DNA from: Ktedonobacterales bacterium
Lineage (GTDB): Bacteria > Chloroflexota > Ktedonobacteria > Ktedonobacterales > JADMIN01
Length of the DNA stretch: 32,000 nt
NCBI GenBank assembly: GCA_030167145.1
Contig: CP126532.1
Coordinates: 2,580,001-2,612,000 of the forward strand
Reading direction: 5' to 3'
Part shown: piece by piece, positions 336-31,570 of the stretch
Layout: each line of letters begins with the position of its first letter
How positions within the stretch are numbered: the first letter of the stretch is position 1
Notes under the pieces: generated by a model
Told to the model about the DNA's origin: nothing
The model's database searches: none
What the model saw: only the letters and a program-made list of their open reading frames with translations
Program-made: the position numbers and the translations under genes

Positions 336-977
336 CTACGACGCCACCACATCGAACCGGCAGCGCGATGACGTGCCCCGCTCACAATGCTCGCAGACCG
401 CGACACCACTGATTGTGCTGATGAACATTTCCGTCATCCGGCACACCTCCGCATGGCCGTTGACCACCGCCGCGAGTGGGCAGCTAGCTCCGCGAATGGA
501 AAGCTGATTGTCCTCCTCCACGACCTCCGCCAGCCCGCCGAGTTCGTTCAGCGCCTCCGCCGCCACGACGAGACGGCTGCGTGTATCGCTGCCCTCCGTG
601 GCCGCGTCCATCTCATCGGCAATGCGCCGCCCCGCCTCACGCGCGGCGGCGTCGAGGTCGTCTTGTCCGAGCCGCTCACCAAGCACCGCCAGAAGTTGGC
701 GCAGCACGTGGTCGTAGGATTTCGGGAAGAGCAGATCCGCGTCCGCCGTCAGCCGGTATTCTTGCGACGGTTTGCGGCTGCCGCTGGTCCACCGCTGGCC
801 CGCCTCGCACACCAGCCCATCGCGTTCCAGCAGCACCAGTTGCGTGCGAATCGCGTTATTCGTCAGATCCAGCGCCTGCGCGAGATCGTCAACGGTGGCG
901 GCCTGGCGGCGAAGATACTGCAACATCCGGCCACGTGTCGTGGTGAAGAAACGCCGATCCCACGTGGTAGCCGGCAT
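336..977 (-). CDS. ArsR-type winged-helix transcriptional regulator with Cys-rich C-terminal domain
   Basis: MPATTWDRRFFTTTRGRMLQYLRRQAATVDDLAQALDLTNNAIRTQLVLLERDGLV is a typical ArsR/COG2345-like HTH. The C-terminal part has CPLAAV..HAEVC..CEHC..C. ATG at 977-975 is preceded by AAAGGAG. The longer track ORF start at 1070 lies upstream of that RBS and is rejected. Confidence 0.7.
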   Translation of the reverse strand: MPATTWDRRFFTTTRGRMLQYLRRQAATVDDLAQALDLTNNAIRTQLVLLERDGLVCEAGQRWTSGSRKPSQEYRLTADADLLFPKSYDHVLRQLLAVLGERLGQDDLDAAAREAGRRIADEMDAATEGSDTRSRLVVAAEALNELGGLAEVVEEDNQLSIRGASCPLAAVVNGHAEVCRMTEMFISTISGVAVCEHCERGTSSRCRFDVVAS

Positions 978-1036
978 GTCGCTCGCTCCTTTCGCTCTGC
1001 TCACCCATAGCTCGCCCGAGTCTCGCGCTCTTTTTG

Positions 1037-1066
1037 AGCATAGCCAGCCCCATTCGCTGATGTCAA
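1037..1066 (-). promoter_or_regulatory. Predicted sigma70-type promoter for the ArsR-type gene
   Basis: On the minus strand: TTGACA (1066-1061), an 18-nt spacer, then TATGCT (1042-1037), about 60 nt upstream of the ATG at 977. Confidence 0.4.
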
Positions 1067-1305
1067 GCAAATCAAGGAATTCATGCGAATGCTGTATCAG
1101 TGCGCTCTAGCCTCCACACTACGGCGTCCCTCCGCTGGGTCTCCACCTCGCGTTCCCAATCCCGCGTCCGTATCCGCCCCTCTTTGTCCGCATGTGCCCG
1201 TATCTGCCGCCTTGCCATACCCGAACATCAGTTCTACACTGCTCACTGGGGAACGGCAGACCAGATCACACAACTTCACACGATTCGCGAACGGAGACGA
1301 CCAGC

Positions 1306-2628
1306 ATGGGCAAGCGCAACAACGGCAACAACCGCAACAACCGCAACACTACAAAACATCACACTGGCAGCAATCCACTCCCCTCGCCTCGTAGGAGAGG
1401 GGCCGGGGGTGAGGTCTCTCTCTTTCCGCCCGGCGAGCCGCTGCGCCCCAGCGCTGGCCTCACCGGCGCGCAGGGCGAGCCGCGCCAGTGGGCCTATCCC
1501 GTCGGCTACAACATCGCCCAGCTTCCGCGCGCCACCGAACAAACCAGCTTCGCAGAGCTACGCAACCTCGCCGCCCTCTACGACGGAATCCAGCTCTGCG
1601 AGCGCGTCTACTTCGACCTCCTCGGGCGCCTCGAACCGCGTGTGCTGCCACGGCCAGACGCCCTCGCCCCAGGCGACACCGGCGCCGAGCCGCGCTGGCG
1701 CGAACCCGCCCGCCGCATCGAGGCCTTCCTCGAAAGCCCCGACCACGCCCAAGATCTGCGCTCCTGGCTCGTCGCCTTCGTCCGCGATCTGCTCGAAATT
1801 GACGCCGTCGCCATCTACACCCGGCGCACCCGCGGCGGCGCGCTTCACGCCCTCGAACTCGTCGCCGCCGACAGCATCAAGCCGCTCATCAACCCTGACG
1901 GGCGCACCCCACAGCCGCCACAGCCCGCCTATCAGCAATACCTCTACGGCGTGCCCGCTGGCTGGTACACCCGCGACGACCTCGACTACCTCCGCGAGAC
2001 CGCCCGCACCGACAGCCTCTACGGCCTCTCGCGCGTCGAGCGCATCATCCTGCGCGTCAACCAGGCGCTACGCAAACAAAGCTTCGATCTCGCCCGCTTC
2101 ACCGACGGCGCTACCCCGCTCGGCATCATCGAGCCGCCCACCACCCTCGCCTGGACCCCTGAACAGCTTGAAACCTTCGAGCGCGCCTTCAACGGCCTCC
2201 TCGCTGGCAACGACGCCTGGCGTGTCCGCGCCAAAACCCTCCCACCGGGCGCACACTGGCAGGCGCTCACCGGCGACGATCCGCTCATCGCATTCGACCG
2301 CTTCCTGCTCAACGTCACTGTCGCCGCCTTCGGCCTCACCATGGACGAACTCGGCTTCACCGACACCAGCAACCGCAGCACCGGCCAAACGCAAGAAAGC
2401 GTCGTCTATCGCCGCGCCGTCGCACCCGTCGCCGCCCTTGCCGCCAGTTACCTCACCCGCAAGATCCGCCACTGGCTCGACCCACGCTTCACCGTCACCT
2501 TCACCGGCCTCGAAGAACCCGACGACTTCGCCACCCGCGCCAACGCCTTCGCCCAGCTCATCCCCCTCGGCGTCGTCACCCCCACCACCGCCGCGCGGCT
2601 GCTCCATCTCCCCGCTCCCGGCGCCTAG
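1306..2628 (+). CDS. Phage portal-like protein (orphan), 440 aa
   Basis: Long high-GC3 ORF. The segments LYGLSRVERIILRVNQALRKQSFDLARFTDGATPLGIIEPP...WTPEQLETFERAFNGLLAG...FDRFLLNVTVAAFGLTMDELGF...STGQTQESVVYRR match the general pattern I know from HK97/SPP1-type portal proteins. ATG at 1306 follows GGAGA. The N-terminal ~60 codons are low complexity (NNGNNRNNRN) and run through a repeat element, so the start is uncertain. Confidence 0.55.
   Translation: MGKRNNGNNRNNRNTTKHHTGSNPLPSPRRRGAGGEVSLFPPGEPLRPSAGLTGAQGEPRQWAYPVGYNIAQLPRATEQTSFAELRNLAALYDGIQLCERVYFDLLGRLEPRVLPRPDALAPGDTGAEPRWREPARRIEAFLESPDHAQDLRSWLVAFVRDLLEIDAVAIYTRRTRGGALHALELVAADSIKPLINPDGRTPQPPQPAYQQYLYGVPAGWYTRDDLDYLRETARTDSLYGLSRVERIILRVNQALRKQSFDLARFTDGATPLGIIEPPTTLAWTPEQLETFERAFNGLLAGNDAWRVRAKTLPPGAHWQALTGDDPLIAFDRFLLNVTVAAFGLTMDELGFTDTSNRSTGQTQESVVYRRAVAPVAALAASYLTRKIRHWLDPRFTVTFTGLEEPDDFATRANAFAQLIPLGVVTPTTAARLLHLPAPGA
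1378..1420. repeat. C-rich/G-rich hairpin element followed by GGGGGTGAG (copy 1)
   Basis: ctCCCCTCgcctcgtagGAGAGGGGccgggggtgaggtctctc. The same architecture occurs in reverse orientation at 29071-29120. Confidence 0.5.
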
Positions 2629-2695
2629 CCCGTGCGCACCTCCACTGCCCACCACCCCATTCGCCCCACTGTGCCGCTGGCATCCCGCCAGCCCT

Positions 2696-3270
2696 TCAGT
2701 GGGGCGGACATTCTTGTCTGCCCTCCATCTCTGTGGTGGGGCGGACATTCTTGTCTGCTCATGGCCGCGAAATCGGCAGAATCGGCAACTGCTCATCACA
2801 CACATGCGCGCGAAAATCGGCAGAATCGGCAACTGCCCTTCGTGTGTACAACACACAATTGCGGCGAAAACGGCGAAAATCTATCTGCCACCACCCATCT
2901 CTACCTCCACGATCCGCTCTGCATCGGATTACCCTCGGCTCTTCAGGCCGAGAACCCGCTTTACCACCCAGCTCGCTCTACGCGCAAATCAAAATATCGG
3001 CCATTTCGGCCACTGCCTGTGAGGAGGCAAGCCGTGCGCCATCTCAACCGAAAAATCGGCAGAATCGGCAACTCTGGCAACTGGTGGGACAGACATTCTT
3101 GTCTGTCCGCAATCGAAATACCGGCCACTCCGGCCATCGGCGATTTTGTGCAACTTCCAAATTTCGGCAGAATCGGCAACTGCCATTGCGTGCAACCTGG
3201 ACATTCATGCCCATCCCACCTGTGCTCCGGCCACTTATGGCCGAGAGCGCGGCCATTTCGGCCACTACCC
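2696..3270. repeat. Non-coding repeat cluster R1: 9-bp-periodic direct-repeat dimers plus three copies of a GACATTCTTGTC hairpin
   Basis: AAATCGGCAGAATCGGCAACTGC occurs at 2771-2793, 2815-2837, 3054-3076 and 3161-3183. ATCGGCCATTTCGGCCACTRC occurs at 2996-3017 and 3251-3269. CCGGCCACTCCGGCCATCGG occurs at 3122-3141. Hairpins GGGCGGACA-TTCT-TGTCTGCCC lie at 2703-2724, 2740-2761 and 3088-3109. The ORFs across this tract are repeat artefacts. Confidence 0.8.
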
Positions 3271-3284
3271 ACCGCCCACCTCAC

Positions 3285-3560
3285 TTATCCACATCTTGGC
3301 GACTTATCCACAATCCCTGTGGACACCCACCCGCCCGCTTATGTAGACCTCATTCCCACAAAAGTCCGGGGAAGTGTGACCGCTCCAGCGTGGATAAACA
3401 CCCGATTTCTGTGGACAAGTACCCCTGATTGTGCAAAACTCCGCCAATTTCGTAGAACAAGAGTTCCTCTGCCGTATCGCCTCTCGCGGCGCATTTTCGG
3501 TGGATAACCCGGTGGATAAATGGTGCCGAATGTGGATAACTCACACCCACCCGTGGACAG
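3285..3560. promoter_or_regulatory. DnaA-box cluster 1 (9 boxes in 276 bp)
   Basis: Perfect TTATCCACA at 3285-3293 and 3304-3312. Perfect complement TGTGGATAA at 3531-3539. Boxes with 1-2 mismatches: TGTGGACAC 3318-3326, CGTGGATAA 3389-3397, TGTGGACAA 3410-3418, GGTGGATAA 3499-3507 and 3511-3519, CGTGGACAG 3552-3560. Confidence 0.8.
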
Positions 3561-3578
3561 CCAGACTTCCCTACTTGC

Positions 3579-3959
3579 TCATCCACCGAACGAAGCGGCG
3601 GCCTCCGCGATCAGCACGGAGACAGCAGAGAGATCAAACGGAACGCCAAGCACCGCTACCGCAAGTTCCTCAAGCAACGCCCGCTCCTCCTCACGCGGTG
3701 AACTGTAGTAGATGGCAATGTAGCGATGCTCCCCATAGCGCACGTGGTCCGCCGCGAGGGCAGCAAGGGTATGTTTCAGGGTGAATTGCAAGGCGCCGCT
3801 GTCCAGAATAGTTACGATGGGGTGCAGGCTCGAGCGCAGCGCCATCAAAGCCGCCTCTGCGGACTGGGCGACGGTGACCGAATGCCCCTCATCAACACAC
3901 GACATTTCGAGCACATTCGTCATGGCTTCATCGTCGCTATAGATCAGCACATGCGCCAT
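3579..3959 (-). CDS. Stand-alone receiver (REC/CheY-like) domain protein, degenerate
   Basis: MAHVLIYSDDEAMTNVLEMSCVDEGHSVTVAQSAEAALMALRSSLHPIVTILD follows the REC beta1-alpha1-beta2-alpha2-beta3 pattern, with the acidic pair (DDE) and an Asp at the phospho-acceptor position (ILD). The conserved Lys-Pro is replaced by Val-Pro (LGVPFD). ATG at 3959 is preceded by GAGGAGGG. The track start at 3983 would include that RBS. Confidence 0.5.
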   Translation of the reverse strand: MAHVLIYSDDEAMTNVLEMSCVDEGHSVTVAQSAEAALMALRSSLHPIVTILDSGALQFTLKHTLAALAADHVRYGEHRYIAIYYSSPREEERALLEELAVAVLGVPFDLSAVSVLIAEAAASFGG

Positions 3960-4007
3960 CGCATCTACCCTCCTCACCCACACCTATGCGGCTTTCCTCC
4001 CTACACC

Positions 4008-4481
4008 CTACATCGGCGTCCCACCGGTCGGGCCACCGCCCGTCGCCGCGCCCGCCACTGGCACATCATGCACCCGGAAGGGCCAGCGCTTCGCCGCCTC
4101 ATCCCCATCAATCGAAGCCACCACCCGATAGCCGCCCGCGTGCGGAAACGGCACATCCAGCGGAAACCCCAGCATCACCGGCTGCGCCGCGCCCTGCGGC
4201 AACTGCGGAGGACGCCCCACATTGATATGTCCCTCGATCTTCACCAACGGATTCCCATCCTCATCCTCGATCAACACCGTCAGCACGTGCGGGCGATTCG
4301 TCTCATTCCACGGCACGAACACGCACACCCCAATGCCCAGGTGGCTTGGCAGCGGTGCGCCGCCTGGCGGCAAAGGCCGCCGGTGATCCGTCCATCCCCC
4401 ACCGCTCACATACAGCAATCCATTGACCACCTCGACATGATTCGCCAGCACCAGCGAATCTACCGTCACCGTATCCGTCAT
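4008..4481 (-). CDS. Hypothetical protein, 157 aa (conserved-looking, beta-rich, Gly/Pro tail)
   Basis: MTDTVTVDSLVLANHVEVVNGLLYVSGGGW...GYRVVASIDGDEAAKRWPFRVHDV. ATG at 4481 is preceded by GGGAGG at 8 nt. High GC3. It lies 48 bp upstream of the REC-like gene on the same strand. I cannot name the family with confidence. Confidence 0.5.
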   Translation of the reverse strand: MTDTVTVDSLVLANHVEVVNGLLYVSGGGWTDHRRPLPPGGAPLPSHLGIGVCVFVPWNETNRPHVLTVLIEDEDGNPLVKIEGHINVGRPPQLPQGAAQPVMLGFPLDVPFPHAGGYRVVASIDGDEAAKRWPFRVHDVPVAGAATGGGPTGGTPM

Positions 4482-4667
4482 CACCTGCGCCTCCCGCGCG
4501 CCGCACACGCGCCCGTTCTCACTCGCTCGCTCGTTGCCCCATTTCATTGCCCCCATTAACGCACATCTCAGCACGTAAGCAGGCACAGACCGCGACATCA
4601 CCCCACAGGCGCACAGACATAGACCAAACCACCGCCCACACTCAGCAAAATAGCCAGCCAACACGCA

Positions 4668-4697
4668 TTGACAAGCAACGCATATTCAGCATAGGAT
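4668..4697 (+). promoter_or_regulatory. Predicted sigma70-type promoter for the 4745 gene
   Basis: TTGACA at 4668-4673, an 18-nt spacer, then TAGGAT at 4692-4697. Confidence 0.4.
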
Positions 4698-4744
4698 GTG
4701 CGTCATGATTGTATCGTGCCAAGATGGAAAAGGAGCGGCATACC

Positions 4745-5254
4745 ATGTGGCAACCTGACTCACTTTCCCCGTATGCGGAAGTCCCCGCGCCTCCACGGCG
4801 TCCACACGCGCGCCGCCGCCTGCGCGGCGTAGTCCTTGCCTTTCTTGGCCTCATCGTTCTCGGCGGCGCGGTCGGCGTCGGTTTCGTGCTCTCGCGCCCC
4901 CTTCTGCGGCACAACCTGCCCGACAACGTCCCCCTTCTCGCCAACACCAGCTTCGTCACCTACACCGATACCCACCAATCCGGCTTGCACGAACAATACT
5001 GGTATTACACCGTCTCCAATAGCACCCTTCAGCAAGTCACGAGTTACTACGTTACCCAACTGTCCGTGAATGACTGGCAGAACGTGAACATTACCAACGT
5101 CGCCGTCACCCCCAACATCACCGCCACCAGGGACGACGGCGCCACCACCATCTACATCCTCGCCAGCCAGCAACCCCTCACTGCCCAGGGCATCACCGTC
5201 ACCCCGCCCGCCGGCGGCATCGCCCTGGAGATCGCCATCGTCACCAAGACCTGA
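4745..5254 (+). CDS. Single-pass membrane protein, hypothetical (169 aa)
   Basis: MWQPDSLSPYAEVPAPPRRPHARRRLRGVVLAFLGLIVLGGAVGVGFVL has a basic stretch followed by one TM helix, then an extracytoplasmic domain. GGAG at 4732-4735 lies 9 nt before the ATG at 4745. The track start at 4709 is a TTG. Confidence 0.55.
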   Translation: MWQPDSLSPYAEVPAPPRRPHARRRLRGVVLAFLGLIVLGGAVGVGFVLSRPLLRHNLPDNVPLLANTSFVTYTDTHQSGLHEQYWYYTVSNSTLQQVTSYYVTQLSVNDWQNVNITNVAVTPNITATRDDGATTIYILASQQPLTAQGITVTPPAGGIALEIAIVTKT

Positions 5255-5308
5255 TACGCGGTAGTACGCGACAGTACGCGACAGCACACTGTCACATTCC
5301 CTTGTCAA

Positions 5309-5682
5309 CTATCCACAATCCTGTGGATAGCACTGTAGATACCTGGTCGAAAACGCGCGTCAGTGCTAGAGCGCTATCCACATGCCAGTAGATAACCCGG
5401 TGGATGCCGCTGTGGACGGCCTGGGGACGGTGTGGAAACTCTCAAGTCCCATCCACCAGCCGTGTGGATGGCGTCGTGGACAGCCTGGGGACGATGTGGA
5501 GAAGCTGAAACACTTGTCCACATCCATCCACCAGCGGCCTCCAGTTATCCGAGCGATACACCAGCGTCATCCACAATCCACAGCCTGTTTCCACATCGTG
5601 GATAATCCATACAACTCTAGGATTGATGCGACCTTGCACCGCCAATTTTTGCCGGTGGCGTTAGTTATCCCCGCCATCCACA
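5309..5682. promoter_or_regulatory. DnaA-box cluster 2 (at least 12 good boxes plus weaker ones in 374 bp)
   Basis: CTATCCACA 5309-5317 and TGTGGATAG 5322-5330 form a perfect palindromic pair. Further boxes: CTATCCACA 5374-5382, TGTGGACGG 5411-5419, TGTGGAAAC 5431-5439, TGTGGATGG 5463-5471, CGTGGACAG 5475-5483, TGTGGAGAA 5495-5503, TTGTCCACA 5514-5522, TCATCCACA 5567-5575, CGTGGATAA 5597-5605, CCATCCACA 5674-5682. Weaker TGTGGAAA-type sites continue to about 5860. Confidence 0.8.
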
Positions 5683-6137
5683 CCCCCTATGACGATCTGC
5701 TACGGTTTCTCTCCTCTTCTTCAATTAAATGAAAGAGATGGGTATCTTCCACATACCTGTGTTCACATTAGCATTGCCATGTGGAAAGTTCGCGTTGCTC
5801 GATCTTGCTCCGGTAGATGCCACCACACGTTGCGTGGAAACAACGTTCCCACGGCCTATCCCCCAAAGACATGCAGTGTTCCTGCTGCCCAAAAGGGGCA
5901 TACCCGCATACGACGTAGCCAAAACATGGTACAGTTCGTTTGAACTCCATGAAGCATTCTTGACGCGCTGATGGCCGCAATGGTGGATGGGCGAAAAATG
6001 GATGGGGCGGCCATTCAGAGCGCCACAAGGGCAAGAGTCATGCAGCGTGAGAGTTCGCGGATGAGCTGCTTCAGGTGGTAGCGCGGTATGCAATGTGCGA
6101 ATTGCGCGAGCATGGCAGGGCGAGAGCGTATCCCCGT

Positions 6138-6166
6138 TTGACACAAGCCGATACGCATGCTATGCT
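6138..6166 (+). promoter_or_regulatory. Near-consensus sigma70 promoter with extended -10
   Basis: TTGACA at 6138-6143, a 17-nt spacer ending in TGC, then TATGCT at 6161-6166. No convincing ORF follows for about 770 nt, until the rho start at 6942. Confidence 0.5.
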
Positions 6167-6941: not shown

Positions 6942-9599
<2,658 letters not shown>

Positions 9600-11829: not shown

Positions 11830-13827
11830 CTATCTCTGCCCTTTGTGCCGTATTGCTTTGCGTCCGCGCTTCGCTTGCACGGCGACGAGGCCGGTTAAGA
11901 GGAGCGATGGCGCGAGTGGAACCGCTGGATACGGTAGCGCCGGGCCGATCGCATGTACGTGTTGCCCAGCAGGCGATGCGCCCCGCCCTTGAACGCCGTA
12001 GTTTTTCACATTCGAGCAATAATTGCCTGACGACTGATACCCGCTCACCTCCCATACTTCGATCTCGCGAAAGCCATTCGTGCCGCTGGAATCCGTCCCA
12101 TTCACCCGCACCGAAGTCACCGTGCGCGCGCCGAAGTTCACGTCCGCGCAGCGCGGACCGCCGCTCGCCATGTCAATCCCGGTGATCGCGCTGCCGTCGC
12201 TGAAATGCAGGTCTATCAGGTTGATCTGGTTGTTATCCGGCGAGTCCTGGAACCGATCCCATACCACCACGCGGTGAATTGTCTCTGGCCCTGGCCAGCT
12301 CAGGTCCACCTCCACCGGATGACAGCAGACCCATTGCTGGCTCAGGCTTCCATCCGCGACAATGCCGCTCACGCCGCCATCTGGCGAGGTGAGCGAGGCA
12401 TTCAGCGCAATGTCGCCGGTATAGTGCGGTGGCGCGGGTGTGTTGGTTGGCGTGGGGATATCAGTCGCTGTTGGTGTGGGGGTATCGGTTGGTGTCGCTG
12501 TTGGTGTGGGGGTATCGGTTGGTGTGACGCCGGGCGCCAGTGTCGGTGTGGCCGTTGGCGTCACGCCGGGCGGTAATGTTGATGTTGGTTGTCCGGGTTT
12601 TGGTGTCTTGGTTGGATGGGCCGTTTTGCTTCCACCGGCTTTCGTTGCCTGCCCTGGGGAGGATGTCAAGGATGCTTGTCCGGTGGGCGCGCCCTGGGTC
12701 GTCCTGAAGGGCAACCAATCTACACGGCCTCCCAGCGCCAATACCAGCAGCCCTGCCAGCACCAGCAATCCCACCGCCATGCGCAGGGCTGTGCCGGTGC
12801 AGCCGCCCCGCCGCCGTGTGGGCGGCGCCACTGCCCTCGGCGGTGGTTCGTAGGCCATCATCGTCGCCGCATTGCTCGCCGCGAGCATCTCTGGCGTCTG
12901 ATGCGCCTGCCCGTCTGGCAGCGTCCGCAGTTCCTCGGCCCATTCGCCACGCACGCCCATCGTGAAAGCCCGCGCGAGCGCCACCGTGGTGATAAATCGC
13001 GCGGCTGGCTCCTTTGCCAGCGCCTTCATGATCGCCGCCTCCGCTGGCGCGGGCAGCTCTGGCCGCAGTTGTCGGGGCGGCACGGGTGGTTGCTGCACCT
13101 GTAGCAGGATCAGTTGCACCAGCGAATCTGCTTGAAATGGCACCTGCCCAGTGACGAGTTGGTAGAGCAAGATCCCGAGGCTATAGGTATCCGCCGCTGG
13201 GCCAACTTTGTCGCCACGCGCCTGCTCCGGCGCCATGTACTCGAATGTGCCGAGCACCTTGCCCGTGGTGGTGTGCGAGACCTGCGTATCCGTCACGATG
13301 CGGGCGATGCTGAAGTCCGCCAGAAATACCTGCCCGTGCGCGTCGAGCAGCACGTTCTCTGGCTTGATGTCGCGGTGAATGACGTCCTTATCATGAGCGT
13401 AGTCCAGCGCACTGGCGAGTTGCGTTGCGATGCGCCCTGCTTCGTCCAGCGGCAGCCCATTTGGCGCGGCCCTCAGGCGTGTGCTCAGCGTATCGCCTTC
13501 CTTATACGGCAGCACGATATAGAGAAATCCTGTCGCGCTATCTTCACCGAACGCCAGCACTGGTAAGATATGCGGATGGCTCAGCCGCTGAAGGGTGCGC
13601 GCCTCGCGCAGGAACCGCTCGCGCAGGTCCGCTCGTTCATCCTGGCTAGCCAGCATCGGCAACAGCAAGAGTTTGATCGCCGCTTGCTCTGGCAGGTCGG
13701 CAGCCGCGCTCGTCCGCTGGCCAAGGTAGACCGCGCCGGAAAGACCCCTACCGAGTACACGTGCGAGCTGGTAGCCCGCCACTTCCTGCCCAACGAGGTC
13801 TTCGAGTCCCTGCCCACCTGGTCCCAT
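11830..13827 (-). CDS. Ser/Thr protein kinase paralog, single TM, Thr/Pro-rich linker and C-terminal discoidin/galactose-binding-like domain (665 aa)
   Basis: Kinase motifs: AIKLL, HRDIKPENVLL, DFSIA, GTFEYMAPE. TM helix ALRMAVGLLVLAGLLVLAL. The linker reads TPTATPTLAPGVTPTDTPTPTATPTDTPTPTATDIPTPTNTP. The C-terminal part (WDRFQDSPDNNQINLIDLHFSDGS...TNGFREIEVWEV) looks like an F5/8-type-C-like module. The stop lies 16 bp upstream of the next kinase start. Confidence 0.9.
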   Translation of the reverse strand: MGPGGQGLEDLVGQEVAGYQLARVLGRGLSGAVYLGQRTSAAADLPEQAAIKLLLLPMLASQDERADLRERFLREARTLQRLSHPHILPVLAFGEDSATGFLYIVLPYKEGDTLSTRLRAAPNGLPLDEAGRIATQLASALDYAHDKDVIHRDIKPENVLLDAHGQVFLADFSIARIVTDTQVSHTTTGKVLGTFEYMAPEQARGDKVGPAADTYSLGILLYQLVTGQVPFQADSLVQLILLQVQQPPVPPRQLRPELPAPAEAAIMKALAKEPAARFITTVALARAFTMGVRGEWAEELRTLPDGQAHQTPEMLAASNAATMMAYEPPPRAVAPPTRRRGGCTGTALRMAVGLLVLAGLLVLALGGRVDWLPFRTTQGAPTGQASLTSSPGQATKAGGSKTAHPTKTPKPGQPTSTLPPGVTPTATPTLAPGVTPTDTPTPTATPTDTPTPTATDIPTPTNTPAPPHYTGDIALNASLTSPDGGVSGIVADGSLSQQWVCCHPVEVDLSWPGPETIHRVVVWDRFQDSPDNNQINLIDLHFSDGSAITGIDMASGGPRCADVNFGARTVTSVRVNGTDSSGTNGFREIEVWEVSGYQSSGNYCSNVKNYGVQGRGASPAGQHVHAIGPALPYPAVPLAPSLLLTGLVAVQAKRGRKAIRHKGQR
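12466..12525. repeat. Perfect 2 x 30-bp tandem repeat inside the kinase Thr/Pro linker
   Basis: CGCTGTTGGTGTGGGGGTATCGGTTGGTGT at 12466-12495 is repeated exactly at 12496-12525. It encodes TPTDTPTPTA twice on the minus strand. Confidence 0.9.
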
Positions 13828-29120: not shown

Positions 29121-29156
29121 CGGCCCGTCCTCGGCCATGATGCAGTTTTACAACTT

Positions 29157-30172
29157 GGGAGTTGTGCTAGTTCGTTGAGTTGACAAGAACGCCTCGGTTG
29201 GCTACAAGGGAACAAACTACACCGTTCCGTTGGGACCGACCGAGGTGATGTGGATGATACGCGATTTTGACGACTTCTGCACGTGGATGTATGTGCTCAT
29301 TAGCGACCTGTTCGTTGCGATTGCTCCGCTGGTCGCACGCCCCGGCCCGCTGCCGGTCTGCACCGATGCCGAACTGATCACGATGGCAATCGTCGGCGAA
29401 TGTGCTGGCTGGGACCAGGAGACCGTTCTCCTGAGCCGCTGGCAGGACCATCGCGACCTGTTTCCGCACCAGCCCGAACGCAGCCGCTTCAATCGCCGTC
29501 GGCGTGATCTGGCACCGGCCATCAACCTGGTGCGTCAAGCCGTCGTACAGGTGCTGGATCTCGCCCAGGACTCGCACTGTATCATCGATAGTCTGCCCAT
29601 CCCCGTGGTGCAGTTCTATTACGTGCCCCAGGCCAACTCCGACTGGAAGGCGGCAGGCGCCACCTTTGGCCATTGCTGCTCCAAGAAGCAGGCCATCTTT
29701 GGCTATAAACTGCATCTGCTGATCACCCAAGGCGGCGTCATTCGCGACTTCGCGCTGGCGCCCGCGCATGTCACCGACCGCGAAGTCGCCGGCGAATTGC
29801 TCCATGACCATACCCACCTGCTCGTACTCGCCGATAAAGGCTATATCAGCCACTCCCTGGCGGCTGACCTGCGCGCCGAGCGCCACCTCGCCCTTGTGAC
29901 CATCCCGCGCAGCAATCAGCGGGTGCAGCCCTCGGCGGCGTTTCGCCACCTCCATGCGCATCTGCGCCAACTGATCGAGACGGTCAATAGCCAATTAGCC
30001 CTCCAGTTCCCTATCGAGACCAACCATGCCCATAGCTTCTGGGGGCTGACCGCGCGGCTCTACACCAAACTGGCCGCCCATACCCTCTGTCTCTGGCTCA
30101 ATCGCCTGCTCGGGGTGGCTGAGGTCTTACATCTCAAGACGCTCGCCTTCCCCAACATCTAGCACAACTCCC
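29157..30172 (+). mobile_element. IS982-family insertion sequence (1016 bp)
   Basis: Perfect 14-bp terminal inverted repeats GGGAGTTGTGCTAG (29157-29170) and CTAGCACAACTCCC (30159-30172). Flanked by the direct repeat AACTT (29152-29156 and 30173-30177). A single transposase ORF ends inside the right repeat. Confidence 0.85.
29248..30162 (+). CDS. IS982-family DDE transposase
   Basis: DDFCTWM...CTDAELITMAIVGE...DSLPIPVVQFY...FGYKLHLLITQGGVIRDFALAPAHVTDREV...LLVLADKGYIS...IETVNSQL is typical of the IS982/DDE_Tnp_1-like family. The start is ATG 29248 or ATG 29254 (GAGGTG just upstream). The track start at 29230 is a TTG. Confidence 0.8.
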   Translation: MWMIRDFDDFCTWMYVLISDLFVAIAPLVARPGPLPVCTDAELITMAIVGECAGWDQETVLLSRWQDHRDLFPHQPERSRFNRRRRDLAPAINLVRQAVVQVLDLAQDSHCIIDSLPIPVVQFYYVPQANSDWKAAGATFGHCCSKKQAIFGYKLHLLITQGGVIRDFALAPAHVTDREVAGELLHDHTHLLVLADKGYISHSLAADLRAERHLALVTIPRSNQRVQPSAAFRHLHAHLRQLIETVNSQLALQFPIETNHAHSFWGLTARLYTKLAAHTLCLWLNRLLGVAEVLHLKTLAFPNI

Positions 30173-30220
30173 AACTTAATCGGGTAATGGTAGACTGACC
30201 TCCAAAAAGGAGGTGTGCAG

Positions 30221-31271
30221 ATGCGTCAACGTCGCTTGGCCCTGACAGCGGGGCAACGTCGCGAGTTAGTACAGATGCGTGACCGTGATCGTCGCGCCTA
30301 TTTGCGGGAACGGGCCGCCGCGCTGCTCAAAATCGCGGAGGGCCGCTCGGTACGAGCGGTCGCCCTCCGCGGGCTGCACCGCCGCCGCAAGCCTGACACG
30401 GTCTATGGCTGGCTCAATGCCTACCTGACCGGTGGCGTGGCGGCGCTGGTGCAGCGTGCGCGCGGCCACCGGGGTTTTTCCCCCTCAGCAGGGGCGCGAA
30501 TTGCTCCAGGTGCTGCACCAAGCGCCTGAACGCTTTGCCGTGGCGCGTGCGCGCTGGCGGTTGGTGGACTTGCGGCAGGTGCTTCCCTGGTTAGCGCACT
30601 ACACCTTAGCCGGGATCTGGCGCGCCTTGCGGCGGCTGGGGGGTCGCACCAAACGCGGACGGCTCAGTGTCCACAGTCCCGATCCGCACTACGCTGAGAA
30701 GTGCTTTGCCATTGAGCAGGTCTGTGCGCTGGCCCAGCAGCAGCCGCAGCGGGTGCGGGTGTTCTACGGCGACGAATTCAGCCTGTATCGCCAGCCGAGC
30801 CTGGCGGCGCGCTTTGCGCCGCGTGGGCACCGGCCCAAGGCGCGGCTCGCACCCCGCGCCACCACCCGCTACCGCGTCAGTGGGGCGCTGGATGTCGTCA
30901 GTGGCCAGGTGCACTACACCACCGGCGCCAAGATGGGGGTCAAGGGCCTCTGCGCCTTCCTGGCGCAGTTGCGCGCCCGCTCCCCCCACCACCGGCTGGT
31001 CCTGATCTGGGACAACTGGCCGGTCCACCAGCACCCCGATGTGCTCGCCCAAGCCGCGGCGTTACACATTCGGCTCCTCTGGCTGCCGACCTATGCGCCT
31101 TGGACCAATCCGATCGAAAAGCTCTGGCGCTGGCTCAAGCAGACGCTGCTGCATCACCACCGTCTCGCCGACCGCTGGGACGACTTGAAAGGCGCGGCGC
31201 TCGCCTTTCTCGACCAGTTCGCCACCGACTCATCGGCGCTCCTGCGCTATGTTGGCCTATTACCCGATTAA
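30221..31271 (+). pseudogene. IS630-family transposase, split into two frames (+1 shift at a G4T5C5 tract)
   Basis: The first frame (30221-30529) encodes an HTH region (RELVQMRDRDRRAYLRERAAALLKIAEGRSVRAVA..., GWLNAYLTGGVAAL). The +1 frame, from about 30480 to 31271, encodes the DDE_3 core (VFYGDEFSL...IWDNWPVHQ...LPTYAPWTNPIEKLWRWLK). Skipping one base in 30471-30484 gives a continuous ~349-aa protein (...RGHRGFPPQQGRELLQVL...). ATG at 30221 is preceded by AAGGAGGTG. Confidence 0.75.
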
Positions 31272-31299
31272 GTTGTAAAACTGCATTATGGCCGACGCA

Positions 31300-31570
31300 C
31301 AAGGGTAGTGGCATGAATGCCAGAGTGGCCGATGTAGCCGATATTCCCGGAAGGCAGACAGGAATGTTTGCCCTATGAGGGCAGTGGCCGGAGTGGCCGA
31401 TTTTTGACTTGGCGGGATGGATATGGCCGAAATGGCCGATTTTGCAATACGTGCATGATGCAGTTGCCGGAGTTGCCAGCGAGACGCTGGCGCTCCATGC
31501 GCGAGTGGCCGAAATGGCCGAAATGGCCGAAATGGCCGATGTGGCTGATTTGGCTGATTTGGTTGATGGT
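31300..31570. repeat. Non-coding repeat cluster R2: the same 9-bp-periodic family as R1, in reverse-complement orientation, including a 7-unit tandem array
   Basis: 7 x 9 bp at 31506-31568: TGGCCGAAA x3, TGGCCGATG, TGGCTGATT x2, TGGTTGATG. Dimers: TGGCCGATGTAGCCGATA 31326-31343, TGGCCGGAGTGGCCGATT 31385-31402, TGGCCGAAATGGCCGATT 31424-31441, TTGCCGGAGTTGCCAGCG 31464-31481. Hairpin GGCAGACA-GGAA-TGTTTGCC at 31353-31372. Palindrome TGGCATGAATGCCA at 31309-31322. Confidence 0.8.

What the first reader, a model, noticed from the sequence alone, without database searches (positions are those of the whole stretch)
2696..3270. Array of 9-bp-periodic direct-repeat dimers (WWTCGGCMR-WWTCGGCMA-CTGC) directly abutting a DnaA-box cluster
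About 575 bp of non-coding DNA is built from short direct repeats with 9-bp register. AAATCGGCAGAATCGGCAACTGC occurs four times. The variant ATCGGCCATTTCGGCCACTGC/CCGGCCACTCCGGCCATCGG occurs at least three times. There are also GGCGAAAACGGCGAAAATC (2864-2882) and CTCTGGCAACTGG. None of this is explained by genes, CRISPR (units too short, irregular spacing, no cas genes) or known IS ends. Arrays of contiguous short direct repeats are how iteron-type replication origins and RHH/ParG/omega-type centromeres are built. This array ends 15 bp before the first perfect DnaA box. My hypothesis is that these are binding sites for an unidentified DNA-binding protein acting at an origin or partition site.
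Basis: partly seen in the sequence, partly recalled or inferred. Interest (0 to 1): 0.7.

Follow-up and report, generated by a model that had tools for sequence, protein, structure and literature searches.

The report
Mosaic repeat cluster beside replication origin
A 600-base non-coding stretch next to the likely chromosome origin of a soil Chloroflexota bacterium is a patchwork of 9-base tandem pairs and small hairpins that recurs 28 kb away, so it looks more like a dispersed intergenic repeat cluster than an origin-specific protein landing pad, although that reading is not excluded.

Summary
The repeats are real and far beyond chance: the 16-mer TCGGCMRWWTCGGCMA has 10 matches against 0.02 expected. 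The tract is non-coding (GC3 0.54 against 0.69-0.84 in neighbouring genes), although GenBank and JGI call a hypothetical ORF across it.

- The tract is a mosaic. Eight 9-bp-register direct-repeat modules ("D") are interleaved with three GTGG-tagged 8-9-bp hairpins ("H").
- The same mosaic, including a roughly 95-bp D-H-D composite, recurs in inverted orientation at 31280-31570. There are no DnaA boxes there.
- The DnaA boxes at 3285-3539 are an accessory cluster. The conserved origin-like core (DnaA boxes, AT-rich element, sharp GC-skew switch) is at 5300-5760.

H fits the known GTAG/GTGG-tagged REP class and also occurs in Planctomycetota-like and viral contigs. D is specific to this lineage, absent from 110 kb of related Ktedonobacterales DNA, and expands by slippage.

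No Rep or Par genes lie nearby. Relatives' origins lack both D and H.

Best reading (0.45): a REP/BIME-like mosaic repeat cluster. An origin-linked protein-binding array remains possible (0.25). The decisive genome-wide map could not be obtained.

The parts
2629..3578 (.). 950-bp non-coding gap between convergent 3' ends (portal gene ends 2628 on +; 126-aa REC-like gene ends 3579 on -). It holds array 1 and DnaA-box cluster 1.
   Evidence: GC3 is flat in all frames. It is the second-longest of 24 intergenic gaps in 49 kb.
2699..2723 (+). H1: GTGG-tagged hairpin GTGGGGCGGACATTCTTGTCTGCCC
   Evidence: 9-bp stem, 4-nt loop, -8.6 kcal/mol as DNA, z -5.95. Repeat family D3/D4.
2736..2760 (+). H2: GTGGGGCGGACATTCTTGTCTGCTC, head-to-tail with H1 (37-bp spacing)
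   Evidence: z -7.2
2770..2792 (+). D1: AAATCGGCAGAATCGGCAACTGC (A-tract, two 9-bp units, then CTGC)
2813..2836 (+). D2: AAAATCGGCAGAATCGGCAACTGC
   Evidence: The short-read Logan contig L107 ends at 2836.
2861..2880 (+). D3 variant: GCGGCGAAAACGGCGAAAAT
   Evidence: TRF period 9, 2.0 copies, 100%
2991..3016 (+). D4: AAAATATCGGCCATTTCGGCCACTGC (CCA allele)
3051..3083 (+). D5: AAAAATCGGCAGAATCGGCAACTCTGGCAACTG (three units), running directly into H3
3084..3108 (+). H3: GTGGGACAGACATTCTTGTCTGTCC, perfect 9-bp stem
   Evidence: -9.3 kcal/mol, z -5.8
3116..3141 (+). D6: AAATACCGGCCACTCCGGCCATCGGC
3158..3183 (+). D7: CAAATTTCGGCAGAATCGGCAACTGC
3247..3269 (+). D8: GCGCGGCCATTTCGGCCACTACC, the last module before the DnaA boxes
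3285..3539 (.). DnaA-box cluster 1 (accessory). It has 3 perfect and 4 one-mismatch TTATCCACA boxes, shares the 15-mer GATAACCCGGTGGAT with cluster 2, and has no strong AT-rich element.
5300..5760 (.). DnaA-box cluster 2 with an AT-rich element (5707-5756, 68% AT). This is the conserved origin-like core.
   Evidence: The GC-skew switch at about 5306 is.
31280..31570 (-). Array 2: the same D units on the minus strand (31317-31343, 31385-31402, 31424-31441, 31464-31481, 31506-31541), followed by a diverging 9-bp run to 31567.
   Evidence: The D-H-D composite aligns to array 1 over 96 nt at 70% (E 7e-8).
31353..31376 (-). H4: ATAGGGCAAACATTCCTGTCTGCC, a degenerate tag with one stem mismatch

Best explanation
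The tract is a cluster of two short intergenic repeat families that travel together. It is not an origin-specific device.

H family. H is a REP-type element: a GTGG/GTAG tag followed by an 8-9-bp stem and a 4-nt loop. This is the kind of hairpin thought to be spread by REP-associated HUH/Y1 enzymes acting on single-stranded DNA.

D family. D is a lineage-specific module: an A-tract, then 2-4 head-to-tail copies of WWTCGGCMR, then CTGC. It grows and shrinks by replication slippage. It is copied with the hairpin as a roughly 95-bp D-H-D composite.

Such mosaics accumulate in long gaps at gene ends, as BIMEs do in enterobacteria. Any cellular effect is most likely generic, for example curved DNA from phased A/T tracts, binding of nucleoid proteins, or an effect on the 3' end of the upstream mRNA.

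Shown here: the anatomy, the recurrence at a second locus, the fit of H to the REP class, and the traces of slippage. Inferred: the mode of spread and the lack of an origin role.
For: 1. The same two families, in the same relative order, occur at two loci 28 kb apart. Only one locus has DnaA boxes.
2. H meets the published definition of GTAG-tagged REPs: the tag may degenerate to GTRG or GTGG, stems are 6-13 bp, loops are short, G-T pairs are common, and clusters are reiterated with flanking DNA (PMC3733652; folding).
3. The same H sequence (GTRGGG-CAGACATTCCTGTCTG-CC) is multi-copy elsewhere: in GC-rich IMG/VR contigs (L394 x4, L412 inverted pair, L415 tandem pair), in a 120-bp tandem array (L238), and in a Planctomycetota MAG (L105).
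4. D copies fall into alleles that are identical including their non-core bases: 4x TCGGCAGAATCGGCAA and 5x TCGGCCATTTCGGCCA across both loci. That points to copy-paste rather than independent selection on each site.
5. Array 2 holds a perfect 4-copy 9-bp run that grades into 3-4 diverged copies. This is a slippage signature.
6. Both arrays sit just downstream of, and co-oriented with, a gene's 3' end, in two of the three longest gaps of 24.
7. No Rep or Par gene lies nearby. Related origins lack both D and H.
Against: - Genome-wide copy number is unknown. Only about 70 kb of the 5.07-Mb genome could be read, and both arrays lie within 26 kb of the origin-like core.
- An independent 21-kb sample has none, but it is a prophage.
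- D is not palindromic, so it is not itself a REP.
- No RAYT-type gene was seen in the DNA held.
- The two arrays are mirror-oriented about the origin, which a replichore-polar functional site would also show.
- Head-to-tail REP dimers such as H1-H2 are described as rare.
- Short tandem repeats beside H in other genomes are only weakly enriched: 17/28 against 10.5 +/- 2.4, and the sites are not independent.
Confidence: 0.45

Rival explanations
1. The D units, and perhaps the H palindromes, are arrays of sites for a sequence-specific DNA-binding protein acting on origin-proximal DNA. They would work like AdpA, MtrA, CtrA or Spo0A sites that gate DnaA at oriC, or like origin-proximal loading or segregation sites, placed on both sides of the origin with replichore polarity.
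For: - Array 1 abuts a 7-box DnaA cluster, 1.75 kb from a conserved origin-like core with a GC-skew switch.
- Both known arrays lie within 26 kb of that core and are mirror-oriented about it.
- Cores are invariant while flanks are unrelated.
- A 10-bp tandem (TACGCGACAG x3) likewise abuts cluster 2.
- An independent 21-kb sample of the same genome has no array.
Against: - Array 2 has no DnaA boxes and reaches the start of a peptidase gene.
- Origins of two related genera have no D or H units and no analogous array.
- Spacing between modules is irregular, with no helical phasing.
- Copies are identical at non-core positions, and copy number is unstable.
- No candidate binding protein is shared between the two loci.
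- With two arrays, mirror orientation has a 50% chance expectation.
Confidence: 0.25
2. The arrays act as RNA. They would be transcribed as the 3' tail of the upstream gene, where the hairpins protect the mRNA or end transcription and the repeated single-stranded units bind an RNA-binding protein.
For: - Both arrays are co-oriented with the gene ending just upstream.
- The + strand of array 1 folds better than shuffles (z -4.6) and better than the - strand (z -2.0).
- H1 and H2 use a G-U pair on that strand.
- REPs are known to act at the mRNA level (PMC3733652).
Against: - In array 2 the co-oriented strand carries an A-C mismatch, while the opposite strand would have G-U. The strand preference is therefore not consistent.
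- No T-run follows the hairpins, and no promoter-like site lies in the array.
- No Rfam family matches.
- The D units have no structure of their own.
Confidence: 0.1
3. The array is the iteron set or centromere of an integrated plasmid- or phage-type replicon whose other parts are the adjacent DnaA boxes and the lone portal gene.
For: - Direct repeats next to DnaA boxes are the layout of iteron origins (established knowledge of P1, F and pSC101).
- A portal gene and an HTH gene lie immediately upstream.
- Cluster 1 and the three small genes beside it have no counterpart in relatives.
Against: - No Rep initiator, ParA/ParM, integrase or other phage gene lies within 49 kb.
- The portal-HTH pair occurs in relatives without any array.
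- The second array is 28 kb away.
- There is no match to any plasmid or phage record.
- No AT-rich element lies beside the array.
Confidence: 0.05
4. The tract encodes the repeat protein annotated as OJF49_002475 (248 aa).
For: An open frame spans 2761-3507 and was called by both NCBI and JGI pipelines.
Against: - GC3 is 0.54 against 0.69-0.84 in neighbouring genes.
- The D units fall in all three phases of the frame.
- The frame runs on through seven DnaA boxes.
- A search of 1.84 billion representative proteins found only itself and a spurious ORF over another hairpin array.
- It is a singleton cluster.
Confidence: 0.02

Closest known systems
GTAG-tagged REPs and their clusters (BIMEs); Di Nocera et al. 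2013, PMC3733652
   Same: - H has a 5' GTGG/GTAG-type tag, an 8-9-bp G+C-rich stem with G-T pairs, and a 4-nt loop.
- It lies outside genes, at gene ends.
- It occurs singly, as pairs and in clusters mixed with other short motifs and reiterated flanking DNA.
- The class is reported in Chloroflexi and Planctomycetes.
   Different: - Copy number in this genome is unknown, and no RAYT gene was seen.
- H1-H2 are head-to-tail, which is described as rare.
- The dominant partner motif (D) is a non-palindromic 9-bp tandem repeat with no described counterpart in BIMEs.
- The same stem-loop sequence is shared across phyla, which is unusual for REPs.
Iterons of theta-replicating plasmids (P1, F, pSC101, R6K; own knowledge)
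   Same: Several direct repeats with conserved cores lie next to DnaA boxes in a non-coding region.
   Different: - The units are 9-bp pairs rather than 17-22-bp sites.
- Spacing is irregular.
- There is no rep gene and no adjoining AT-rich unwinding element.
- A second array lies far from any DnaA box.
ParR/ParG/omega-type centromeres (own knowledge)
   Same: Contiguous short direct repeats of 7-11 bp.
   Different: - Only 2-4 contiguous copies per module.
- No partition ATPase or adaptor gene is adjacent.
- The array is not upstream of an operon that it could autoregulate.
Regulator sites flanking oriC: AdpA boxes (Streptomyces), MtrA direct repeats (Mycobacterium), CtrA and Spo0A boxes (own knowledge, not checked in papers here)
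   Same: Short sites for a non-DnaA protein placed beside DnaA boxes. The host is a mycelial, spore-forming lineage like Streptomyces. The reverse-complement unit TGGCCGRRRT loosely resembles the AdpA consensus TGGCSNGWWY.
   Different: - The match to the AdpA consensus fails at 1-2 fixed positions.
- No regulator has been identified.
- The sites are not conserved in related origins.
- Identical copies also occur away from DnaA boxes.
Short tandemly repeated repetitive (STRR) sequences of cyanobacteria (own knowledge)
   Same: Short units of 7-9 bp repeated head to tail in intergenic DNA at several loci. Copy number varies.
   Different: The unit length and sequence differ. Here the runs are mostly only two units long and are tied to a hairpin element.

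Membership tests
GTAG-tagged REP (applies to the H hairpins) | Terminal GTAG tetranucleotide (variants GTRG and GTGG accepted) next to the stem | tested here: met
   GTGG heads H1, H2 and H3. H4 has ATAG. Accepted variants are listed in PMC3733652.
GTAG-tagged REP (applies to the H hairpins) | Stem of 6-13 bp with a short loop, stable as a single strand | tested here: met
   8-9-bp stems and 4-nt loops. H1-H3 give -5.3 to -9.3 kcal/mol and z -5.8 to -7.2. H4 is weaker at z -2.05.
GTAG-tagged REP (applies to the H hairpins) | High copy number, dispersed in extragenic DNA of the genome | not testable with these tools
   There are four copies at two loci in about 70 kb. The family is multi-copy in other contigs.
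GTAG-tagged REP (applies to the H hairpins) | A RAYT (Y1/HUH) gene in the genome, often flanked by the REPs | not tested
   None appears among the Pfam hits of the 70 kb held. The rest of the genome could not be reached.
REP (applies to the D units) | Palindromic body | tested here: not met
   D units are direct repeats. Folding gives z -1.25 and -1.45.
Iteron-type origin | Adjacent gene for a Rep initiator | tested here: not met
   No Rep family appears in the Pfam scans of neighbouring ORFs or in precomputed hits over 49 kb.
Iteron-type origin | Repeats of about 17-22 bp, usually phased, beside an AT-rich unwinding element and DnaA box(es) | tested here: inconclusive
   DnaA boxes are adjacent. 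However, spacing is 42-133 bp, and the richest 40-nt stretch near the array is only 57-60% AT.
ParR/omega-type centromere | Adjacent partition ATPase and adaptor genes, with the array upstream of that operon | tested here: not met
   No ParA/ParM/ParB-type hit in 49 kb. Array 1 lies between convergent 3' ends.
CRISPR | Regular repeats of 24-48 bp with unique spacers of similar length, and cas genes | tested here: not met
   Modules are 18-33 bp at irregular spacing. No cas genes.
Chromosomal oriC (applies to 5300-5760) | Cluster of DnaA boxes beside an AT-rich element, conserved in relatives | tested here: met
   Seven boxes with at most one mismatch and many weaker ones. AT content is 68% at 5717-5756. 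Box cores and a TATCCACA-CCCTATGAC-ATCT-CTAC block are invariant in L111 and L114.
Chromosomal oriC (applies to 5300-5760) | GC-skew switch from negative to positive | tested here: met
   All seven 2-kb bins to the left are -0.12 to -0.27. Skew is about 0 from 5306, then +0.1 to +0.18 beyond 31 kb, and +0.156 at contig position 3.38 Mb. Only 70 kb was sampled.
Chromosomal oriC (applies to 5300-5760) | Linkage to dnaA/dnaN | tested here: not met
   No dnaA or dnaN within 49 kb, or in the loci of relatives. Ktedonobacteria chromosomes are reported to carry dnaA/dnaN with parA/parB (PMC13289182).
Protein-coding gene (ORF 2761-3507) | Codon-position composition like the genome's genes, and homologues | tested here: not met
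   GC3 is 0.54 against 0.69-0.84. There is no true homologue among 1.84 billion representatives.

The most novel reading that the evidence does not exclude
The D units are sites for an undescribed protein that marks origin-proximal DNA on both replichores with polarity. Array 1 would use them to control an accessory DnaA-box cluster, giving a split, regulated origin in a mycelial, spore-forming Chloroflexota lineage. This would be a developmental gate on initiation analogous to AdpA, MtrA or CtrA but built from 9-bp tandem sites.
Probability: 0.15. Interest if true: 0.7.

Novelty: new variant of a known kind. Interest (0 to 1): 0.38.

Why it matters
If the mosaic is a dispersed repeat, it extends REP/BIME-type elements to Ktedonobacterales. 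It also shows a REP hairpin sequence shared with Planctomycetota-like and viral DNA, tied to a slippage-prone 9-bp partner motif. That is useful for annotation, because two pipelines called false ORFs here, and for assembly and strain typing.

If the D units instead prove to be confined to the origin, they would give the first handle on how replication initiation or origin segregation is controlled in this little-studied, actinomycete-like group. In this genome the origin appears to lie away from dnaA and to carry two DnaA-box clusters.

Tried and rejected
1. Genome-wide mapping of the motif failed.
The hits were chance matches and coding tandem repeats such as collagen-like and PE-PGRS-like arrays and CRISPRs.
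- The source contig was never reached.

2. Sampling more of the genome through multi-copy genes failed. The IS630-type and IS5-type transposases are single-copy.

3. A six-frame translation of both arrays, used as a protein query to find other miscalled ORFs, returned nothing. The HMMER search with the miscalled ORF found only itself and one hairpin array. This method did not detect the known ORF over array 2, so its silence is uninformative.

4. Similarity and family searches were negative:
- megablast and blastn against plasmids and phages gave no match;
- Rfam gave nothing at gathering or E-value thresholds;
- no tRNA or tmRNA was found;
- a literature search for the hairpin sequence found nothing relevant.

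5. Readings considered and rejected:
- a sigma-54 promoter, because the TGGC spacing is 9 rather than 11;
- ends of a large Tn7- or Mu-like element, because the interior would hold oriC and rho;
- inverted repeats of the neighbouring IS630, whose true 28-bp inverted repeats lie outside the array;
- CRISPR.

6. Enrichment of short tandem repeats beside H hairpins in other genomes is only weak and the sites are not independent.

Full report
**Source and setting**

The window comes from a 5.07-Mb contig of a Ktedonobacterales (Chloroflexota) MAG. The portal protein at 1306-2628 is identical to OJF49_002474, and window position 1 corresponds to contig position 2,580,001.

The finding lies in a 950-bp gap (2629-3578). 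On its left a portal-like gene ends at 2628 on the + strand. On its right a 126-aa REC-like gene ends at 3579 on the - strand. Third-position GC is flat in all frames across the gap, against 0.69-0.84 in the flanking genes.

**Checking the observation**

The direct repeats are real.
- TCGGCMRWWTCGGCMA with at most one mismatch has 10 matches in 32 kb, against 0.02 expected.
- Six of these lie at 2773-3264.
- The repeat finder recovers the families.
- Tandem Repeats Finder reports CGGCGAAAA x2 at 2862-2879.
- Lag-9 autocorrelation stands out at 0.33 against about 0.25.

Some details need correcting. The exact 23-mer occurs twice, not four times, although the 16-mer core does occur four times. 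The modules cover roughly a third of the tract.

Each module reads as an A-tract, then 2-3 units of WWTCGGCMR, then CTGC. I call these modules D1-D8.

First, the tract also holds three 25-nt hairpin palindromes, H1-H3: GTGG followed by GGCGGACA-TTCT-TGTCTGCC or a variant. They are very stable as single strands, with z -5.8 to -7.2. The D units do not fold.

Second, the same D units occur again at 31280-31570 on the opposite strand, with a fourth hairpin at 31353-31376. That site includes a perfect four-copy 9-bp run grading into diverged copies. The two loci share a composite of D, H, about 12 nt, then D, which aligns over 79-96 nt at 68-70%.

Array 2 has no DnaA boxes. A nested pair of insertion sequences must be removed to see its original context: an IS630-type element with 28-bp inverted repeats, itself carrying an IS5-type element. 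With those removed, array 2 fills the gap between the 3' end of a DUF433/DUF5615 pair and the start of an M20 peptidase gene.

Third, the DnaA boxes abutting array 1 (3285-3539; 3 perfect, 4 with one mismatch) are not the main cluster. A denser cluster at 5300-5700 is followed by the most AT-rich stretch of the region.

**The origin**

Rho homologues led to two related contigs, L111 and L114, that carry a DnaA-box cluster within 1-9 kb of rho. Aligned with window 5290-5780, the three sequences keep the box cores and a block TATCCACA-CCCTATGAC-ATCT-CTAC followed by AT-rich sequence.

The + strand GC skew behaves as follows:
- -0.12 to -0.27 in all seven 2-kb bins to the left of 5306;
- about 0 from 5306 onwards;
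- +0.1 to +0.18 beyond 31 kb;
- +0.156 in a sample 0.8 Mb further along the contig.

I therefore read 5300-5760 as the replication origin or an origin-like element. This is an inference from conservation and skew. dnaA and dnaN are not within 49 kb. A recent paper places them with parAB on Ktedonobacteria chromosomes and describes Rep-less secondary replicons (PMC13289182).

Cluster 1 shares a 15-mer with cluster 2. Together with the three small genes between the clusters, it has no counterpart in the relatives. It therefore looks like a lineage-specific partial duplicate.

**Is the array an origin feature?**

Relatives' origins, and the DNA downstream of their portal genes, contain no D dimers, no H hairpins and no analogous array.

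In the 49 kb of contiguous source DNA, 2 of 24 intergenic gaps of at least 100 bp carry the motif. These are two of the three longest gaps. A separate 21-kb sample, which is a real prophage, has none.

No Rep, ParA/ParM/ParB, cas or integrase gene is present. Iteron and centromere membership therefore fail on their defining genes.

**What the hairpins are**

A profile-free HMMER search with the miscalled ORF over the array found one other protein. It proved to be a spurious ORF over a 120-bp tandem repeat containing GGTGGAGCAGACATTCCTGTCTGC and its inverse.

A scan of viral contigs for CAGACATTCYTGTCTG was near chance overall. It nevertheless contained a clear subfamily with a GTAG/GTGG head and extended stems:
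- four copies in one 10-kb contig;
- inverted and tandem pairs;
- several copies lying 5-40 nt upstream of a ribosome-binding site and start codon.

Two further copies lie in 8 kb of a Planctomycetota MAG. None occur in about 2.7 Mb of other fetched DNA.

These features match the published GTAG-tagged REP superfamily, which has been reported in Chloroflexi and Planctomycetes. That family has degenerate GTRG/GTGG tags, 6-13-bp stems, G-T pairs, and clusters reiterated with flanking DNA (PMC3733652).

**What the D units are**

The D units are not palindromic, and I found them nowhere else. They fall into alleles that are identical even at non-core positions: four copies of TCGGCAGAATCGGCAA, and five of TCGGCCATTTCGGCCA spread over both loci. 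Array 2 shows fresh tandem expansion.

That pattern fits copying plus slippage better than independent maintenance of individual binding sites. It does not exclude binding.

The phased A/T tracts predict curved DNA. This is inference only.

The G-U and A-C pattern in the hairpin stems is not strand-consistent between the two arrays, which weakens a purely RNA-level reading. The + strand of array 1 does fold better than shuffles.

**Verdict**

The tract does lie beside an origin, but it is best described as a REP/BIME-like mosaic of a known hairpin class and a new 9-bp tandem motif that also occurs away from DnaA boxes.

Both known arrays lie within 26 kb of the origin and are mirror-oriented, and the genome-wide distribution could not be obtained. 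An origin-linked protein-binding role therefore keeps about a one-in-four chance.

Noticed in passing
window 5300-5760 (also L111 4225-4680, L114 870-1330): A conserved DnaA-box cluster with an AT-rich element and a sharp GC-skew switch, within 1-9 kb of rho and not next to dnaA/dnaN. It is a likely replication origin for this order. The block after the last box (CCCTATGAC-ATCT-CTAC) has 3-nt periodic GAT/GAC on the complement and may be DnaA-trios.
   Followed up: partly
window 3285-3539 and 3579-5254: A second DnaA-box cluster shares GATAACCCGGTGGAT with the main cluster. Three lineage-specific small genes separate it from the main cluster: a 126-aa REC-like gene, a DUF6941 gene, and a 176-aa gene encoding a protein with a hydrophobic segment near its N-terminus. 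This could be a split origin or a DnaA-titrating copy.
   Followed up: partly
window 5255-5284: A 10-bp tandem repeat, TACGCGACAG x3, ends about 25 bp before the first DnaA box of the main cluster. This mirrors the way array 1 abuts cluster 1.
   Followed up: no
window 3146, 3429; L111 4149, 4191: Exact TTGTGCAA occurs only twice in the 32-kb window and only twice in the 22.7-kb L111. All four copies lie beside the DnaA-box clusters. It may be a conserved origin-associated site.
   Followed up: partly
window 336-2628; L108, L109, L110: A lone phage portal gene, paired in this genome and L108 with a divergent upstream gene (HTH in this genome), is 70-80% identical across many Ktedonobacterales in different gene neighbourhoods. 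A 76%-identical paralogue sits in a complete-looking prophage of the same genome (L110). The lone copy may be a domesticated or remnant portal.
   Followed up: partly
window 29141-31287: Nested insertion sequences. An IS630-family element has perfect 28-bp inverted repeats (ATGCAGTTTTACAACTTAATCGGGTAAT). It is interrupted near its left end by an IS5-type (DDE_Tnp_1) element at about 29158-30175. It is inserted 2-3 bp upstream of the longest M20 peptidase ORF. Both transposases are single-copy in the collection look-up.
   Followed up: partly
window 2761-3507 and 5382-5732: Public annotation calls ORFs over the repeat array (OJF49_002475, 248 aa) and over the main DnaA-box cluster (116 aa). Both look spurious on composition.
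   Followed up: yes
L394, L405, L408, L415, L442 (IMG/VR contigs); L105 (Planctomycetota MAG): The hairpin GGCAGACAGGAATGTCTGCCCCAC often sits 5-40 nt upstream of a ribosome-binding site and start codon in GC-rich viral or planctomycete-like contigs. One stem-loop sequence shared across phyla is unusual for REPs and may mark a conserved protein or RNA partner.
   Followed up: partly
window 6138-6166 and 6942-9599: Rho carries a long disordered N-terminal extension, and its true start is near 6942 (VPEDQE, conserved in relatives). It is preceded by a leader of about 800 nt that starts near a promoter-like TTGACA-17-TATGCT with an upstream TG. Similar TTTGACA motifs occur in L111 and L113.
   Followed up: partly
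L107 (Logan contig of SRR22113990), end = window 2836: The short-read contig stops exactly after D2. No 30-mer is repeated inside array 1. This hints at a branch caused by another copy elsewhere or by array polymorphism in the population.
   Followed up: no
window 12464-12525: A perfect 30-bp tandem duplication (2.1 copies) lies inside a Ser/Thr kinase gene on the minus strand.
   Followed up: no
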